A program made the position numbers. A stretch of 64,000 nt of DNA from Styela clava (taxonomy: Eukaryota): assembly GCF_964204865.1 (NCBI RefSeq), contig NC_135250.1, positions 8,060,001 through 8,124,000 on the forward strand, written 5' to 3'. Position 1 is the first letter of the stretch. The number at the start of each line of letters is the position of its first letter. Shown piece by piece: positions 45,001 through 57,000 of this stretch.

Positions 45001-48000
45001 TCCTTCATAAATTTTTTACAGAAGTCCGCAAAATACGGTACAATATAGAACACCGAATGATAACAGAGATAGAAGATCTCCCAGTCAAAGACACAGTTGG
45101 TCTTTGAATAGTAATAACAGCAACAACGGAGAAGTTGGAAATTCACCAGTGAAAAAGTAAGCAATTGTTTTTTAATTTGATAGAAAACTAAAAACAACCG
45201 AGATGTAACATACGAGATATATATAGGAACTGTGATAAGGTTATAGATTTTATTGCTCAATTAAAAAACTTACGCAGATGCGAAAAAAAGTATCTTTGTT
45301 TCTTGGACGCTTTTGGCAAATCCAAATTCAATAAAAACGTATGTAATATTGGCTTGTAGTAATCTCTTGTTTGGCGTGTTGGTGTCACAATTACAAGTAT
45401 GATTATCGTATTTCAAAATACCGTCAGTTTCAAATTCCCTTGAATCACCGTGTTCAAATTTGTTTTTTCACACTTTTGTGCTCTTAACACGAGTCTAGTC
45501 TGCTGTGGATACATAAGCAGCTGCTATTTTTGAAACTAGTGAATGAACAGTTGTGGATGTCAAGTCTTACTTTCTAACCCCTATGTCGACGGTAGGCAAA
45601 TCTTTTTTGCAAGCACTGAATTCAGAGAATTTTTTTTGCACATTCGCTTTCAGTTTAGTTAAAACCATCAGTTAAAATTCAATATGCAAAATATACCAAA
45701 TTAACGATTTTAACAGAAATATATAAGATGACAAAGTTAAAAACATCAAATAACATAAATCCATTATTCACTGTGATGTGTCGAATTTAACGATGGCAAC
45801 CATTGTTGAATCGAAGGTGGGCCGTGCCCATTCCTGCACTAGGTCAATAATCCTGTTTGAATCGGGGGACAGAATTTGTTAAATTATTTTTCTTTTCTGC
45901 AGGAATCAAAGTAAGATCCCACCTAAGCCTCCTGTACGTTCCACATCTAAGAATCTTTTTTCACCTGAGCAACAGCAACGACCTGCATCTGCAACACCCA
46001 GATCTACTACCGCAACTACTTCACCTAGTCCAGATAACATGCCATTCAAAGAAAATAAACCAAAGGACTTGGACAAGTGAGAATATCTTGATCAGATTTG
46101 AAATAAGTGGATTTAATTAGCGAACATCTTCCTTTCGTTTGTCCTTAAATGACCACAGCATATGGGTAGTATGTTTCTGCAGCCAACACTGGTATTATAT
46201 TTGCCTTTTCAAATGCTATATATTGGATTTCTGAATAGTGTGTTATGCTAATGTGGCTTACACGGTGACATGGTTAGGCAGGGTTTTCCAAAATGAGCAA
46301 ACATGGGTCATGTGGTCATGATGCGTTACATTAGGTTAAAAATGTCCACAATTTGGAATATTTCTTTCCGATCAAACTTGAATGGCATTCATTTTACCCA
46401 ATTTTTATGTTCCATGTGATATAAAGATTATGGTATGTCTCATTATTATCGTGTACTTTACCGAAATACAATTGATTATCTCTGAAATTTTGAATTGAGA
46501 AATTTTATTTGAATACATGTTTCGTTACTAATTTCTCAAGGTTGCCACTCGGTCCAAAATCATCTGGCCGACCAAAGAGTGCAACGGAATCTCAGAATCA
46601 ATACGTTGGACTTTTACAAATCAAACCACAGAGTGGTGCTTTATCAGATCGCTCCGAGTCACCAATAAGGAGAAATCGATCTAAAACTGACGCTTCGAGT
46701 GAAACGACATCGCCAGAGAAACGAGACATTGCTGACGAATTAAGTAAATACTTAATAAGAAAAAGATCAGGTTTGAGTTCATCAGGAGACCCTTTCTCAC
46801 CTCCGCCCGTTACTTCTTCTCCTATTCCCCTCGAAAATGACACTTTCGTTCTGTCGAAAACGCAATCGAAATCTGTCGGAGCAACACCGACTGCCAAAAC
46901 ACCAATGATGCCACCTGTTGCTAAGCCTCGTACCAAACTCACAACCCCGACTGACAAAGTTAAACCGCCAGCAATAACCTTCGATTCACCAAAGGATAAT
47001 GCTTTGCAACCTGGAGGAAGTAAAAAAGACAGATCGAAGTCGTTCGATTTTTCCGAGTCTCCTAAATCGAAAAAGAAAGAAGCTCCACCCCCTAGAAGAA
47101 AAAGTGAGGAAGTTACTAAAAAAATAAAACCCGTGAAATTGTCTGAAGTTGTGATACCAAAACCTTCAGCTGTTTCACAACTAGCTCGGGCTTCTCCAAG
47201 TTCGCGTGGTTCCTATGTTGCTGCAATCGATGGTATGTACTTTTCGTGGTGTTGATAACTAATCAAAACAACAGTAGAATGAGTCTCCCGAGTTGGGTAC
47301 TGTGGCCATTTGCTTGAACAATATTTTCTTAGATCGTGTACTGAAGTTGAAATTTTAAAATCAAATGGAAGCAAACAAGAATTTCAGAATTTTAATCAAT
47401 TAGGACATATCTTTTGCTATGTGGGGTTAATAAAATTTTTTATGTAACAGAATATTTGTTGTTTCCCATTTTTTTAACAAAAGAGCAAAATCTTTATCCA
47501 TGTAATACAAGATTGTGGTCGGGCTTAGACTATATTTCCTTTTTTCAGTTTCGTTTCTTTTTTCAGTTGGTTATGCATTGGAAAACTTGAAAAATACTCA
47601 ACAATCGAAAAACGATGAAAGGAAAGCAAGAGAACCTAGTCATTCCGGAAGTTTCTCTAAAGATACAGACGAGTAAGTTTTGTCCTTTCATTTACTTTGT
47701 TTCCATTTTAAACTAAGTTACTGACATAGTATCGTATTCGTATATTGGACAAGATGTGGGAATCTATCACCTTGGAATTTTATTACATCAAACATCAACT
47801 TAATATATTAAAGCAGCACAACTCTAAAAAAATAAATTTCAAGTGAAATCACCATTTTTGCGATGGACGAAAGCGAGAGGCATAGGCCAGAGGAGGGTGT
47901 CATGGATTTAACTCATTCATTCATAATCATATGTAATGTTGTACAAGTTGTATATTCCCTTTATCAACACAGACCAGGTTGGGCGCCATTATTTGCAGTA

Positions 48001-54000: not shown

Positions 54001-57000
54001 TACACAAACAAAATTTTGAATGTTAAAATAATTTATCCACATTTTTCTAGAATTAATTGTGAAATTTAAGGGTTCTGTTTATTGGGTCACACTGTATTTG
54101 GGTTGAATATCCATTATACGCGACCACAACAGATGTACTAGGGGACTAGCTCTTTTAGTGCTATCCAATGATATAAATTTTTAGATGAAACTATTCGATA
54201 AAGCTTCAATGAACTGTTTAAAACATAGGGGATCAATTTTGTAACGTTCGTCTAATTAGCTATGCTTAAACTGAATAATTTAAACCCAATTGATATACTC
54301 TGTCACAAATATTGATTCTTTGATTGATTTTTAATTTACAGATTTGGATTCAAAGTCATTGATGGAGTTAAAGTAAAGTTACGAAAGGTGAGATATTTTG
54401 TTTAGTTTTTCGACAGCCAAATACTTTCAGTGGAATTCTGCCAAATTTGAAATGCGTCATAATGGGCATAATAGCCATCAGCTGATGAGGTAGTCCAGCA
54501 ATGTTAGTATCTCAGTTAGGGAATTAGTTTTCATCTGATACATTGTTTAATTCAAGTCGTCTACCTCAGTGGTTTCCAAACTGTGGGTCTCTTGAAGATT
54601 TTTCAGCGTAGCCTTTTGCTGAACGTACAGGTACAATACGCACCACACCAAGGTTCCAAGAACACACAGACAAAATATGGGCGCATATTCCCATTGAGAT
54701 GATTAAAAAGAATAAACTGATTTTTGAAATTGCTCTACATTAGTTGTTGTGGGGTCACGAATATATCTAATTTATCAAATTTATGAAAATTGGGGTTGCG
54801 GAAAAAAGATTTGGAAACAACTGATCTACCTCACTCAGATTCCAAGAAATATTTCTGTGGTGACAGAGTCTAGGAAATTTGGGTTTGCGCTGGTAGACCA
54901 GTAAGATCTCATTTTTTGACACCACATCTCGAAATGTTTGCTTATTGTGAACCTTGCCAAAGTAAAGACGTGAATCACATCATACAATTTGCATTTGGAA
55001 GCATTGAAGTGTAAACCAGTGAAAGTCACAAAACTAAATACACAGAATTTTTTTTTTATCAAATGTATTTCCGCTAGAATTTGATTTTGTGATTTTTCGA
55101 TTATGGCTAGTATGACCCAATACTGTAGTAAGAGGTTGAAATTATAAATATTATTCAGTATCCCATTTGTTCAGATATGTTGTTAACACACTCCAACTAT
55201 TATTGGCAATTGGATTGTGTTCGAAACACCAAGCCTAATACAAAATACTGGGAGTTAAATAGGCATTTACGTATTATATGGCTAGAAAATTAACAAGGAC
55301 ATTAATGGCATTACTAAATAAAAAAAAAATTTGGTCAGCAATATTTCAAATATTTGATTATTGAAACTATTTCTGACAGACTGCAAACATCAGGCCAAAC
55401 CCTAGTTTATCCTTTGTCTGCTGAACTTTGTTAGTTTAACAGGATACTCGTAAAATATATCATCCCGCGTGATAAATGTCTATAATATTTTTCCTCGTAT
55501 ATGTTATTGTTATTTTCATTTTGTATTATTTTTAGGGTCCATCGTCTACTACGTCATCCAAGTCTAGTGGGAAGAAAAAAGTAAGTGAATTTATTGGCGG
55601 ATTGAATTTATTGGCGGAAACTCGATTTCTAATGCATGATCACTATGTTCATGTTGAGAATATTTGAAGCACAACAGGTGGTAGCGAAATGATGTAAATT
55701 GAAGACATTTTGAATTTCTATACATAAAACATCATCTGGGCATGATATGGTAAACCCAAAATTAGAGAGCAGGTGTAGTATTTAATCAAAAACATGATAC
55801 TCTGATATAATAGATCTGAGCAATTTGGTGAGAGTTCTTCAAATAAGCTCTATCTAAACATGTACCATATGCACTGCTGAAGCTTTTTGTGGATAAATTC
55901 AAAATGTCTGCAAATTGCTTCGTTTTGTCTAACATTGGTTGGGCATTATGTATCCTCAACATATTCCAATTTCTGTTATTTGGAATTTGGTCACTTTTTT
56001 ATCATCTGAAATATGATTCAATGGACTGGTGATCAATTATTATTCTTGACTTGTTTCTGTGTTCTTTTTCATTGATATATTTTTTTCTTCCAATCAAATA
56101 CTCCATCTGTTTTGACAGATTGCACACAAAGTTCTAGGGATTGACAGATTGAAGACATCAGACCCAGGTAAGAAAATGACAGACTGAGACTGTTCTTCTT
56201 CTATATTAAAATTTTGTTTACGGAATTTCAGTAATGGATTTTCACCATGAATTATTCTGTTTTATCGTTCATTATCAGAAAGACATGAATAATTTATACA
56301 AGAGCTACATTATCTTCTATATGGAGTCATTTGACAAAGTAGGATAGCTGTAGTGCGTGATATTTGATTCAGAAGCTTTTTCCAGGGATTTATGGAAGTT
56401 TAGTAAATAAAATCACTTTTAAGCAGATGCCGGTATTTGGAATTTCGAAAATAAAATATTCTATAAAGGTACATTGAAAAGTAAATAACCATTCCCACCA
56501 AAACTATTTTTTTCTGTTTTTGGTTACTCAAATAATTTTTATTCTAGATATGAGAAGTCGTCGTGTATCTTGTCGAGATTTAGGACAAGGTGAATGTGAC
56601 GGTTGGTTATGGAAGAAGAAAACGAGCGCGAATTCACCATTGACCTCAAAGTGGAGTAAAAGGTAAGATGGTAAAACAACATGGATGTAAAATTCAACTC
56701 AAATGGAAATTTTTTTTTTAAAACTTTTTTGAAGTAGGCTTAATTGTTATGAGTTTTCTGAAATTGCACCAATATTGCCAAAAAGGGGATTTTGGAAACA
56801 GCTATTTCAGGTATTCTAGTGAGTTGTAATAATTTGGCAAACCGTATGAATTCTGTTCGGGAGGAAAATTCAAAACGAACCTCATGTTAACAAGTCAGAG
56901 GTGCTATTGTACCTTGTATGTAGCCAACATTAGTAAAATATTAGTCAAATGTGCAATTGCTATATCACTAACTTCAATGAATTTGTTATTAGATGGGTCG

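What the first reader, a model, noticed from the sequence alone, without database searches (positions are those of the whole stretch)
47673..56662. One CNK locus may encode CNK3-like and IPCEF1-like products through an internal CpG-rich promoter
Seen: the longest CNK intron (6.7 kb, 47673-54341) lies just upstream of the PH exons. It contains about 3 kb that is visibly CpG-rich (roughly 49400-52350) in an otherwise CpG-poor gene body, a TATA-like word near 49702, a donor-like CAG|GTAAAT (49782), and AATAAA signals upstream (about 47830, 48154, 48556). The PH exon begins with an in-frame Met (56550, MRSRRVSC). Known: vertebrate CNKSR3 (SAM-CRIC-PDZ) and IPCEF1 (PH plus cytohesin-binding tail) are adjacent halves of one CNK gene and can be joined; invertebrate gene-body methylation depletes CpG except at promoters. 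Inference: this single gene already makes an IPCEF1-like short transcript, and perhaps an intron-polyadenylated PH-less form ending KDTDE*, so the split would predate vertebrate duplications.
Basis: partly seen in the sequence, partly recalled or inferred. Interest (0 to 1): 0.68.

Follow-up and report, generated by a model that had tools for sequence, protein, structure and literature searches.

The report
CpG island inside sea-squirt CNK intron
A 2.9-kb stretch that has kept its CpGs sits in the longest intron of a sea-squirt CNK scaffold gene, just upstream of the exons for its IPCEF1-like half; it may be an internal promoter, but the sequence alone cannot show that.

Summary
The window is from an ascidian, Styela clava or a very close relative. 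It carries one CNK gene of 30 coding exons (30127-62940, + strand). I mapped this exon by exon with a named S. clava database protein.

**Confirmed**
- Intron 18 (47673-54341, 6669 nt) is the longest intron.
- It holds the strongest CpG-retaining block of the window: 49449-52332, CpG o/e 1.33, against 0.64 in the other 26 resolved introns. The block's score is 44.1; the best of 200 shuffles reached 13.3.

**Real but at chance frequency**
- The TATA-like word, the donor-like site and the AATAAA words all occur at background rates.

**What the block looks like**
- It is non-coding and shows no transposon domain, terminal repeat or second copy in the window.

**Bearing on a short product**
- One unnamed ascidian-like database protein starts exactly at exon 19. 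Two others start at the Met of exon 22. That Met is present in 4 of 4 ascidian-type sequences and 0 of 11 other CNKs.
- These starts could equally be assembly or gene-caller truncations.

**Verdict**
- An intragenic unmethylated promoter is plausible (about 0.4) but unproven.
- The PH-less polyadenylated form has no support.

The parts
30127..62940 (+). Coding span of the single CNK gene: 30 coding exons, CNKSR2-type architecture, ending SYLETDL then a stop
   Evidence: Exon-wise tblastn of P0001 (S. clava LOC120338655 isoform X1) at mostly 92-100% identity. Junctions (27 of 29 resolved). Pfam hits SAM, CRIC, CNK2_3_dom and PH on single exons. Terminal peptide.
47567..47672 (+). Exon 18, the last exon before the long intron. 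Its donor is CGA|GTAAGT; read-through gives E then a stop
   Evidence: Leave-one-out donor score 7.3, rank 18 of 27.
47673..54341 (+). Intron 18, 6669 nt, the longest intron of the gene
47831..48564 (+). AATAAA words at 47831, 48154, 48555 and 48559, proposed as intronic polyadenylation signals
   Evidence: The density matches the window background of 1.39 per kb.
49449..52332 (.). CpG-retaining island: 137 CpG, o/e 1.33, GC 0.38. Two peaks, about 49.4-50.4 kb and 51.0-52.3 kb, with a trough between them
   Evidence: No ORF longer than 77 aa within the block (81 aa anywhere in the intron), no Pfam domain, no Rfam family, no tRNA, no repeat.
49704..49709 (+). TATAAG word
   Evidence: TATA-like words occur at 1.5 per kb in the window.
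49730..49782 (+). G+T-rich 53-mer without an ATG, ending at the donor-like CAG|GTAAAT.
   Evidence: G+T 0.736, in the top 0.5% of 53-nt windows. Donor score 8.1 equals the median of true donors, but such sites are common.
54342..54387 (+). Exon 19 (46 nt), encoding FGFKVIDGVKVKLRK. This is the first stretch of the PH-side module that aligns with other invertebrate CNKs. It holds one out-of-frame ATG at 54362
55536..55580 (+). Exon 20 (45 nt)
56119..56167 (+). Exon 21 (49 nt)
56548..56662 (+). Exon 22, the first PH exon. The in-frame ATG at 56550-56552 corresponds to Met 1158 of P0001
56993..57795 (+). Exons 23 and 24 (56993-57075 and 57625-57795), the rest of the PH domain
61195..62140 (+). 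Exons 28 and 29, a conserved C-terminal coiled-coil-like block that resembles a cytohesin-binding region
   Evidence: Weak second BLASTP alignment of P0002 with P0025 (E 0.012). The region name comes from PMC10272126 (passages).

Best explanation
The block 49449-52332 is native, single-copy, non-coding DNA that has escaped the CpG loss seen across the rest of this CNK gene body. That means it has probably stayed unmethylated in the germ line. The most likely reason is that it is an intragenic regulatory region, most plausibly an internal promoter.

Transcripts starting there would join exon 19. They could do so by ordinary splicing from a short leader exon or, as is common in ascidians, by addition of a spliced leader at the exon-19 acceptor.

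Such transcripts would carry only a four-codon upstream ORF (ATG at 54362). They would then be translated from the Met at 56550 into a protein of about 675 residues, containing the PH domain, the C-terminal coiled-coil block and the ETDL end. This would be an IPCEF1-like half of CNK.

Shown: the CpG anomaly, the gene structure and the position of the Met. Inferred: the lack of methylation, promoter activity, the join to exon 19 and the short product.
For: 1. CpG statistics
- Island o/e is 1.33, against 0.64 in the other 26 introns and 0.58 in the flanks of the same intron. Poisson P is about 1e-15.
- TpG o/e is 1.00 in the block against 1.15 in the rest of the gene.

2. The block looks native rather than foreign
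- After deleting CpGs, its GC is 31.5%, against 30.0% in the flanks and 29.2% in the other introns.
- Its CG-free 4-mer spectrum is far from coding DNA (divergence 0.029 against 0.08-0.09) and within the range of other non-coding parts of the window.

3. No sign of a transposon or an RNA gene
- 0 of 112 ORFs of at least 30 aa gave a Pfam hit above its cut-off; all hits were weak and unrelated to mobile elements.
- There is no second copy in the window.
- The best terminal inverted repeat scores at the null mean.
- There is no Rfam family and no tRNA.

4. An ascidian precedent
- In Ciona, a promoter transgene inside an intron of a methylated gene kept an unmethylated domain of about 1.8 kb and was expressed.
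- Repeat copies in such introns were passively methylated (PMC3827831, passages).

5. Position
- Similarity of the PH-side module to another invertebrate CNK starts at exon 19 (P0002 residue 5 aligned with P0025 residue 535; alignment).

6. Database starts
- P0002 (723 aa, on a 2294-nt contig) begins four residues before exon 19, and those four residues do not match exon 18.
- P0004 (672 aa, on a 2171-nt contig) and the named Ciona savignyi fragment P0003 begin at the Met.
- The Met is present in 4 of 4 ascidian-type sequences and 0 of 11 other CNKs aligned.

7. Closest solved structure
- The best match to this module is the IPCEF1 PH domain, 5mr1_A, E 5e-26.
Against: - I could see no transcript 5' ends, methylation data or chromatin data.
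- The TATA-like word, the donor-like site and their combination occur at background frequency.
- The gene's annotated 5' end has only a weak 0.8-kb patch (27.6-28.4 kb) and no island, so CpG retention is not a general mark of promoters at this locus.
- Ciona promoters are reported not to have raised CpG content, and only 115 of 2581 genes showed alternative promoters (PMC4691747, passages).
- The block lies 2 kb or more from exon 19 and is larger than the roughly 1.8-kb domain in the Ciona transgene.
- P0002's contig leaves at most 122 nt upstream of its start. Its first residues also fit plain read-through of the acceptor (ag|A = Arg), which suggests an unspliced fragment or a start close to exon 19 rather than in the block.
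- I suspect that the starts of the unnamed proteins come from an automatic gene caller. This is my inference, not something I checked.
- No short S. clava protein was returned among the 2 hits or the 52 hits.
- The block's 4-mer spectrum is somewhat outside the range of the other CNK intron pieces (0.029 against a maximum of 0.024).
Confidence: 0.4

Rival explanations
1. The block is an unmethylated regulatory region, or the promoter of something other than a short CNK transcript. Examples are an enhancer cluster, an antisense RNA or a nested non-coding RNA. CNK itself would make only the full-length protein.
For: - The CpG anomaly fits this reading equally well.
- The block has two separate CpG peaks.
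- There is no ORF longer than 81 aa anywhere in the intron.
- Many unannotated start-site clusters lie in introns and intergenic DNA in Ciona, some possibly for non-coding RNAs (PMC4691747, passages).
- No short S. clava CNK protein was found.
Against: - No known RNA family was found.
- The location, directly upstream of the module boundary, and the database proteins starting at exon 19 or at the Met would then be coincidence.
Confidence: 0.25
2. The block is a recent insertion, such as a non-autonomous transposon or other young DNA, that has not yet had time to lose its CpGs.
For: - It has sharp CpG edges and 2.9 kb is a typical element size.
- Its CG-free 4-mer spectrum is about 4.6 standard deviations from other CNK intron pieces.
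- Transposons are often unmethylated in Ciona (PMC3827831, passages; Simmen 1999, seen only as a reference).
Against: - There are no transposase, reverse-transcriptase or integrase remnants in 112 ORFs.
- There are no terminal inverted or direct repeats above chance.
- There is no poly-A tail or tandem array and no second copy in 64 kb.
- Its GC without CpGs is close to the flanks.
- Copies inside introns of methylated Ciona genes become methylated, so only a very young insert would look like this.
- There is no match in plasmid or phage collections.
Confidence: 0.2
3. The block is a compositional patch without function, produced by local variation in mutation or methylation.
For: - Smaller CpG-rich patches exist elsewhere in the window, for example 14909-15400, 23146-24848 and exon 17.
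- GpC o/e is also raised in the block, 1.35-1.37.
Against: - Its score (44.1) is three times that of the next segment (14.2) and of the best of 200 shuffles (13.3).
- Its CpG/GpC ratio is 0.97, against 0.72 in the rest of the gene.
Confidence: 0.1

Closest known systems
Vertebrate CNKSR3 / IPCEF1 locus (CNK3/IPCEF1)
   Same: - An N-terminal SAM-CRIC-PDZ part and a C-terminal PH plus cytohesin-binding part belong to one CNK-type unit.
[quoted passage not shown]
- The best solved-structure match of the ascidian module is the IPCEF1 PH domain.
   Different: - Here there is one annotated gene and one full-length protein model of 1832 aa, with no separately annotated short product found.
- I could not test whether the vertebrate boundary falls at the homologue of intron 18.
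- The ascidian gene also carries a roughly 300-residue low-complexity stretch (exon 17) before the boundary.
Vertebrate CNKSR2 (CNK2A)
   Same: - It has the full SAM, CRIC, PDZ, CNK2/3 region, PH and C-terminal conserved region, plus a C-terminal PDZ-binding motif (PMC10272126, passages).
- Fish CNKSR2 proteins match the PH region at about 50% identity.
   Different: - The ascidian protein is much longer (1832 aa, against about 960-1000 aa in the fish hits).
- The exon-19 motif is not evident in the three fish sequences aligned.
Unmethylated promoter domain inside a methylated gene body in Ciona (transgenic line E of Suzuki et al. 2013)
   Same: It is an island of unmethylated DNA around an active start site, lying within an intron of a gene-body-methylated host gene in an ascidian (PMC3827831, passages).
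   Different: - That case was measured by bisulfite sequencing and expression. Here lack of methylation is only inferred from CpG retention.
- That domain was about 1.8 kb; this block is 2.9 kb with two peaks.
Vertebrate CpG-island promoters, including intragenic 'orphan' islands
   Same: It has a local CpG o/e far above its surroundings and sits inside a gene upstream of a functional module.
   Different: - GC is only 38%.
- Ciona is reported to lack CpG islands at promoters (PMC4691747, passages).

Membership tests
CNK (connector enhancer of KSR) scaffold, CNKSR2 type | N-terminal SAM domain | tested here: met
   SAM_2 E 3e-6 on exon 30816-31109. SAM_2 at residues 8-72 of P0001.
CNK (connector enhancer of KSR) scaffold, CNKSR2 type | CRIC region | tested here: met
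   PF10534 E 2e-10 on exon 31374-31637. E 6e-18 on P0001 residues 83-179.
CNK (connector enhancer of KSR) scaffold, CNKSR2 type | PDZ domain | tested here: inconclusive
   PF00595 scores 19.3 bits on P0001 residues 225-296, below the cut-off of 23.2.
CNK (connector enhancer of KSR) scaffold, CNKSR2 type | CNK2/3 domain (PF06663) | tested here: inconclusive
   27.2 bits against a cut-off of 27 on exon 41990-42307, covering profile positions 41-71 of 212. Not reported for whole P0001.
CNK (connector enhancer of KSR) scaffold, CNKSR2 type | PH domain followed by a conserved C-terminal (cytohesin-binding) region | tested here: met
   The PH domain is met: E 1e-14 at P0001 residues 1172-1265. The C-terminal region is only weakly supported: the block aligns with another CNK at E 0.012. 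Cytohesin binding itself was not tested.
IPCEF1-like separate product | PH domain closest to IPCEF1 | tested here: met
   5mr1_A (IPCEF1) is the top solved-structure match, E 5e-26, ahead of the PLEKHA proteins.
IPCEF1-like separate product | Own transcription start upstream of the PH exons | not testable with these tools
   No transcript or start-site data were available. The sequence words are at chance frequency.
IPCEF1-like separate product | Protein N-terminus at the position homologous to the vertebrate IPCEF1 start | not tested
   No named full-length IPCEF1 sequence was obtained. IPCEF1-sized unnamed representatives were not fetched. Within ascidian-type sequences the Met is present in 4 of 4.
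CpG-island promoter (vertebrate definition) | CpG o/e above 0.6 over more than 500 bp | tested here: met
   o/e 1.33 over 2884 bp.
CpG-island promoter (vertebrate definition) | G+C of at least 50% | tested here: not met
   GC 0.38.
CpG-island promoter (vertebrate definition) | Unmethylated and overlapping a start site | not testable with these tools
   No bisulfite or CAGE data were available.
Transposable element | Element-encoded protein remnants | tested here: not met
   0 of 112 ORFs of at least 30 aa on both strands hit a transposon family. All hits were below their cut-offs and unrelated.
Transposable element | Terminal repeats or a tail | tested here: not met
   The best inverted pair scores 18 against a null mean of 18.1.
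Transposable element | Multiple copies in the genome | not testable with these tools
   Only the 64-kb window could be searched, and it holds no second copy. No ascidian genome collection was on hand.

The most novel reading that the evidence does not exclude
The common ancestor of tunicates and vertebrates already ran its CNK gene from two promoters. In this reading, the unmethylated island in intron 18 drives a PH plus cytohesin-binding protein that starts at the ascidian-conserved Met. The vertebrate pair CNKSR3 and IPCEF1 would then be the fixed remnant of that two-promoter layout rather than a vertebrate novelty.
Probability: 0.2. Interest if true: 0.55.

Novelty: new member of a known kind. 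Interest (0 to 1): 0.36.

Why it matters
It is still debated whether vertebrate CNKSR3 and IPCEF1 are one gene or two. Tunicates are the closest living relatives of vertebrates and have a single CNK gene. If that gene already makes the PH-side half from an internal promoter, the separate IPCEF1 unit would predate vertebrates, and this locus would be a simple system for studying what the short form does. It would also be a natural example of a promoter-sized unmethylated island inside a methylated ascidian gene body, so far documented with a transgene. If the block is only a young insertion or a regulatory element for something else, the finding is ordinary.

Tried and rejected
- **Transposon checks.** ORF listing, Pfam on 112 intron ORFs of both strands at E up to 1, self-comparison of the intron with the window, tandem repeats, and direct and inverted repeats. 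The longest inverted pair (49451-49478 with 52691-52718) starts at the left edge of the island but is no better than random pairs. I rejected it.
- **RNA genes.** Rfam with permissive settings on 44000-60000 and with gathering thresholds on the whole window, plus a tRNA scan, found nothing.
- **Contamination.** The block has no match in the plasmid or phage collections.
- **Promoter, donor and polyadenylation words.** I counted them against the window background and rejected them as evidence.
- **Isoform listing.** The cluster look-up for P0001 and P0002 was not available. I therefore do not know what the three members of P0001's cluster are.
- **Named vertebrate IPCEF1.** Two word-based searches restricted to shorter proteins returned none, so the N-terminus comparison failed.
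- **Attar 2012 and White 2010.** Neither paper is held.
- **Spliced leader in Styela.** A literature search for 'Styela' with 'trans-splicing' and 'spliced leader' found 0 papers.
- **Junction script.** My first version failed and I rewrote it. Two junctions (exons 4/5 and 25/26) stayed unresolved.

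
Full report
**What the window is**

The window is AT-rich (33% G+C) and has no N. A single exon translation (58242-58850) matched a named protein, 'uncharacterized protein LOC120338655 isoform X1' of Styela clava (P0001, 1832 aa), at 95% identity. All of P0001 maps to the + strand from 30127 to 62937, exon by exon, mostly at 92-100% identity. 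The window is therefore from this ascidian or a very close relative. It is not human, and I met no contig that I took for human.

Single-exon Pfam scans gave these hits:
- SAM at 30816-31109.
- CRIC at 31374-31637 and 34329-34532.
- The CNK2/3 domain at 41990-42307, just at its cut-off.
- PH at 57606-57797.

On P0001 as a whole, Pfam gives SAM, CRIC, a sub-threshold PDZ and PH. This is a CNKSR2-type CNK gene.

Exon-wise translations and the database proteins P0001 and P0002 stood in for it. The exact product of this window, as one sequence, was therefore never searched.

**Gene structure around the finding**

I placed GT..AG junctions between neighbouring exon matches and resolved 27 of 29 of them.
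- Exon 18 is 47567-47672 with donor CGA|GTAAGT.
- Intron 18 is 47673-54341, 6669 nt. It is the longest intron; the next is 2763 nt.
- Three micro-exons follow, at 54342-54387, 55536-55580 and 56119-56167.
- Exon 22 (56548-56662) comes next. It starts two bases before an in-frame ATG at 56550 and opens the PH domain.

However, the intron is separated from the PH exons by three small exons.

The stop that follows read-through of the exon-18 donor (KDTDE*) is simply the TAA inside GTAAGT read in phase 2.

**The CpG block**

- In 500-bp windows, CpG o/e is 1.2-1.75 between 49501 and 52500. There is one dip (0.66 at 50501), and the flanks are 0.4-0.85.
- A maximum-scoring-segment search over the whole window returns 49449-52332 as the top segment: 2884 bp, 137 CpG, o/e 1.33, GC 0.38.
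- That segment scores 44.1. The next segment scores 14.2, and the best of 200 shuffles of CpG positions scores 13.3.
- The other 26 resolved introns together have o/e 0.64. Intron 18 outside the block has 0.58, and the exons have 0.85.
- TpG o/e is 1.00 in the block against 1.15 in the rest of the gene.

The main observation is real and far beyond chance.

By contrast, the gene's 5' end (25.8-31.4 kb) has only a weak 0.8-kb patch at 27.6-28.4 kb.

**The small signals**

- AATAAA occurs 89 times on the + strand of the window (1.39 per kb). Four lie in the 1.8 kb after exon 18.
- TATA-like words occur at 1.5 per kb.
- With a weight matrix built from the 27 true donors, CAG|GTAAAT scores 8.1, the median of true donors. 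But 107 other sites in the window reach the lower quartile (1.67 per kb). The block has 5 such sites (1.73 per kb).
- A TATA-like word followed by a pyrimidine-purine step at +29 to +33 and a donor within 50-260 nt occurs 32 times on the + strand.

None of these words is evidence on its own. The one mild oddity is that 49730-49782 is 74% G+T, in the top 0.5% of windows of that size.

**What the block is not**

- No ORF in the block exceeds 77 aa, and none in the whole intron exceeds 81 aa.
- None of 112 ORFs of at least 30 aa from both strands of the intron hit a Pfam family above its cut-off. The weak hits are unrelated to mobile elements.
- The intron has no similarity to any other part of the window and no tandem arrays of note.
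- It has no terminal repeats. The longest inverted pair scores at the mean of random pairs.
- There is no Rfam family or tRNA and no plasmid or phage match.

Two composition tests point the same way.
- After deleting CpGs, the block's G+C is 31.5%, against 30.0% in its flanks and 29.2% in other introns. Most of its higher G+C is therefore just the retained CpGs.
- Its CG-free 4-mer spectrum is clearly non-coding. It lies somewhat outside the spread of other CNK intron pieces (0.029; mean 0.017, maximum 0.024) but inside that of other non-coding parts of the window (maximum 0.030).

The block thus looks like native non-coding DNA that has not lost CpGs. A young non-autonomous element cannot be excluded without the genome.

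**Does a short product exist?**

Several database proteins begin in this region.
- P0002 is unnamed, 723 aa, on a 2294-nt contig, and 69-85% identical to the window. It starts MLNRY and continues with exon 19. Its first four residues do not match the end of exon 18.
- P0004 is unnamed, 672 aa, on a 2171-nt contig. It ends ...SYLETDL, as here, and starts at the Met that corresponds to 56550.
- P0003 is a named 161-aa Ciona savignyi fragment and starts at the same Met.

In an alignment of 15 sequences, that Met is present in 4 of 4 ascidian-type sequences and in 0 of the 11 others, which comprise 8 invertebrate sequences and 3 fish CNKSR2 proteins.

A transcript beginning at exon 19 would meet one out-of-frame ATG (54362, four codons) and then this Met. 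The product would be about 675 residues.

In the full representative search with P0002, 14 of the 149 other listed proteins begin within five residues of the position aligned to this site. Eight proteins of 416-436 aa begin 10-31 residues before the matched stretch.

These facts fit a short product, but they have weaker readings.
- An exon boundary lies two bases before the Met, a natural place for truncated gene models and assemblies.
- The starts of unnamed proteins may be choices of an automatic gene caller. This is my inference.
- The Arg before exon 19 in P0002 is what the acceptor ag|A gives if the intron is simply read through.
- P0002's contig leaves at most 122 nt upstream, which does not reach a block 2 kb away unless there is splicing.
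- No short S. clava protein appeared among the 2 hits or the 52 hits.
- The cluster look-up that could have listed the S. clava isoforms was not available.

**Position relative to the module boundary**

BLASTP of P0002 against an unnamed invertebrate full-length CNK (P0025) starts at P0002 residue 5, the first residue of exon 19. Exon 19 also carries a motif shared with three invertebrate CNKs. The best solved-structure match of the module is the IPCEF1 PH domain (5mr1_A, E 5e-26). Intron 18 therefore sits exactly at the upstream edge of the conserved PH-side module.

I could not test whether this is the vertebrate CNKSR3/IPCEF1 boundary.
- Two searches restricted to shorter proteins returned no named IPCEF1.
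- I did not fetch the IPCEF1-sized unnamed representatives, because their origin is unknown and some could be human.
- From recall only, vertebrate IPCEF1 has a Met at the corresponding place. This is a lead, not a result.

**Literature**

- CNK family make-up, the C-terminal cytohesin-binding region, the CNK2A PDZ-binding end, and the remark that CNK3 and IPCEF1 might be encoded by one gene come from PMC10272126 (passages).
- Attar et al. [quoted passage not shown] The paper is not held.
- From PMC3827831 (passages), for Ciona:
  - Gene bodies, introns included, are heavily methylated, while promoters and intergenic DNA are not.
  - Repeat copies in introns of methylated genes are passively methylated.
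  - A promoter transgene in such an intron kept an unmethylated domain from about -800 to +1000 bp and was expressed.
- From PMC4691747 (passages), for Ciona:
  - Promoters do not have raised CpG content.
  - Many putative start-site clusters lie in introns.
  - 115 of 2581 genes had two or more promoters.
  - Regions near trans-splice acceptors may act as alternative promoters.
- A search for Styela with 'spliced leader' and 'trans-splicing' found 0 papers, and one for 'Styela clava' with 'methylation' listed nothing relevant. I know of no published start-site or methylation map for this locus from these searches.

**Verdict**

- The CpG island and the gene anatomy are confirmed.
- The promoter-like words are uninformative.
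- The best reading (about 0.4) is a germ-line-unmethylated intragenic regulatory region, most plausibly an internal promoter for a PH-side CNK transcript.
- The rivals are a regulatory element or promoter for something else (0.25), a young insertion (0.2) and a functionless patch (0.1).
- The proposed PH-less, intron-polyadenylated form has no support beyond chance features.
- The evolutionary claim gains relevance because the host is a tunicate, but it stays untested.

Noticed in passing
window 23116-25995 (+): An uninterrupted 960-aa ORF matches the golgin GOLGA2-type family (PF15070, E 1e-56). It lies just upstream of CNK on the same strand. It is intron-less in an intron-rich region, and its first half retains CpGs (23146-24848, o/e 1.25).
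   Followed up: partly
window 4400-4744 and 9810-10007 (+): Two ORFs give sub-threshold hits to FAM117 (22.0 and 22.7 bits against a cut-off of 27) at successive profile positions. This suggests exons of a FAM117-like gene upstream.
   Followed up: no
window 54342-56167 (+): Three micro-exons of 46, 45 and 49 nt lie between the long intron and the PH exon. The first encodes a motif shared with three invertebrate CNKs but not evident in three fish CNKSR2 proteins.
   Followed up: partly
window 46523-47245 (+): Exon 17 (692 nt, encoding a Ser/Pro/Lys-rich low-complexity stretch) is the second-best CpG-rich segment of the window (o/e 1.11, GC 0.43), despite lying in the CpG-depleted gene body.
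   Followed up: no
window 62917-62940 (+); P0002, P0004, P0025: The protein ends in ETDL. The same ending is found in the two unnamed ascidian-like proteins, and a similar one (NTDL) in an unnamed invertebrate CNK. This is reminiscent of the PDZ-binding end described for CNK2A.
   Followed up: no
window 55586-55618: A perfect 17-nt tandem duplication (1.9 copies) lies in intron 20, just after the exon-20 donor.
   Followed up: no
window 34300-35650 and 58236-59721: Two exon junctions (4/5 and 25/26) could not be placed by exact length against P0001, and the matches there are gapped. The window and the database model therefore differ by small insertions or deletions.
   Followed up: no
table (representatives matching P0002): 14 of 149 listed proteins begin within five residues of the site aligned to the exon-22 Met. 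This pile-up could reflect a widely used start, or a shared exon boundary where models are cut.
   Followed up: partly
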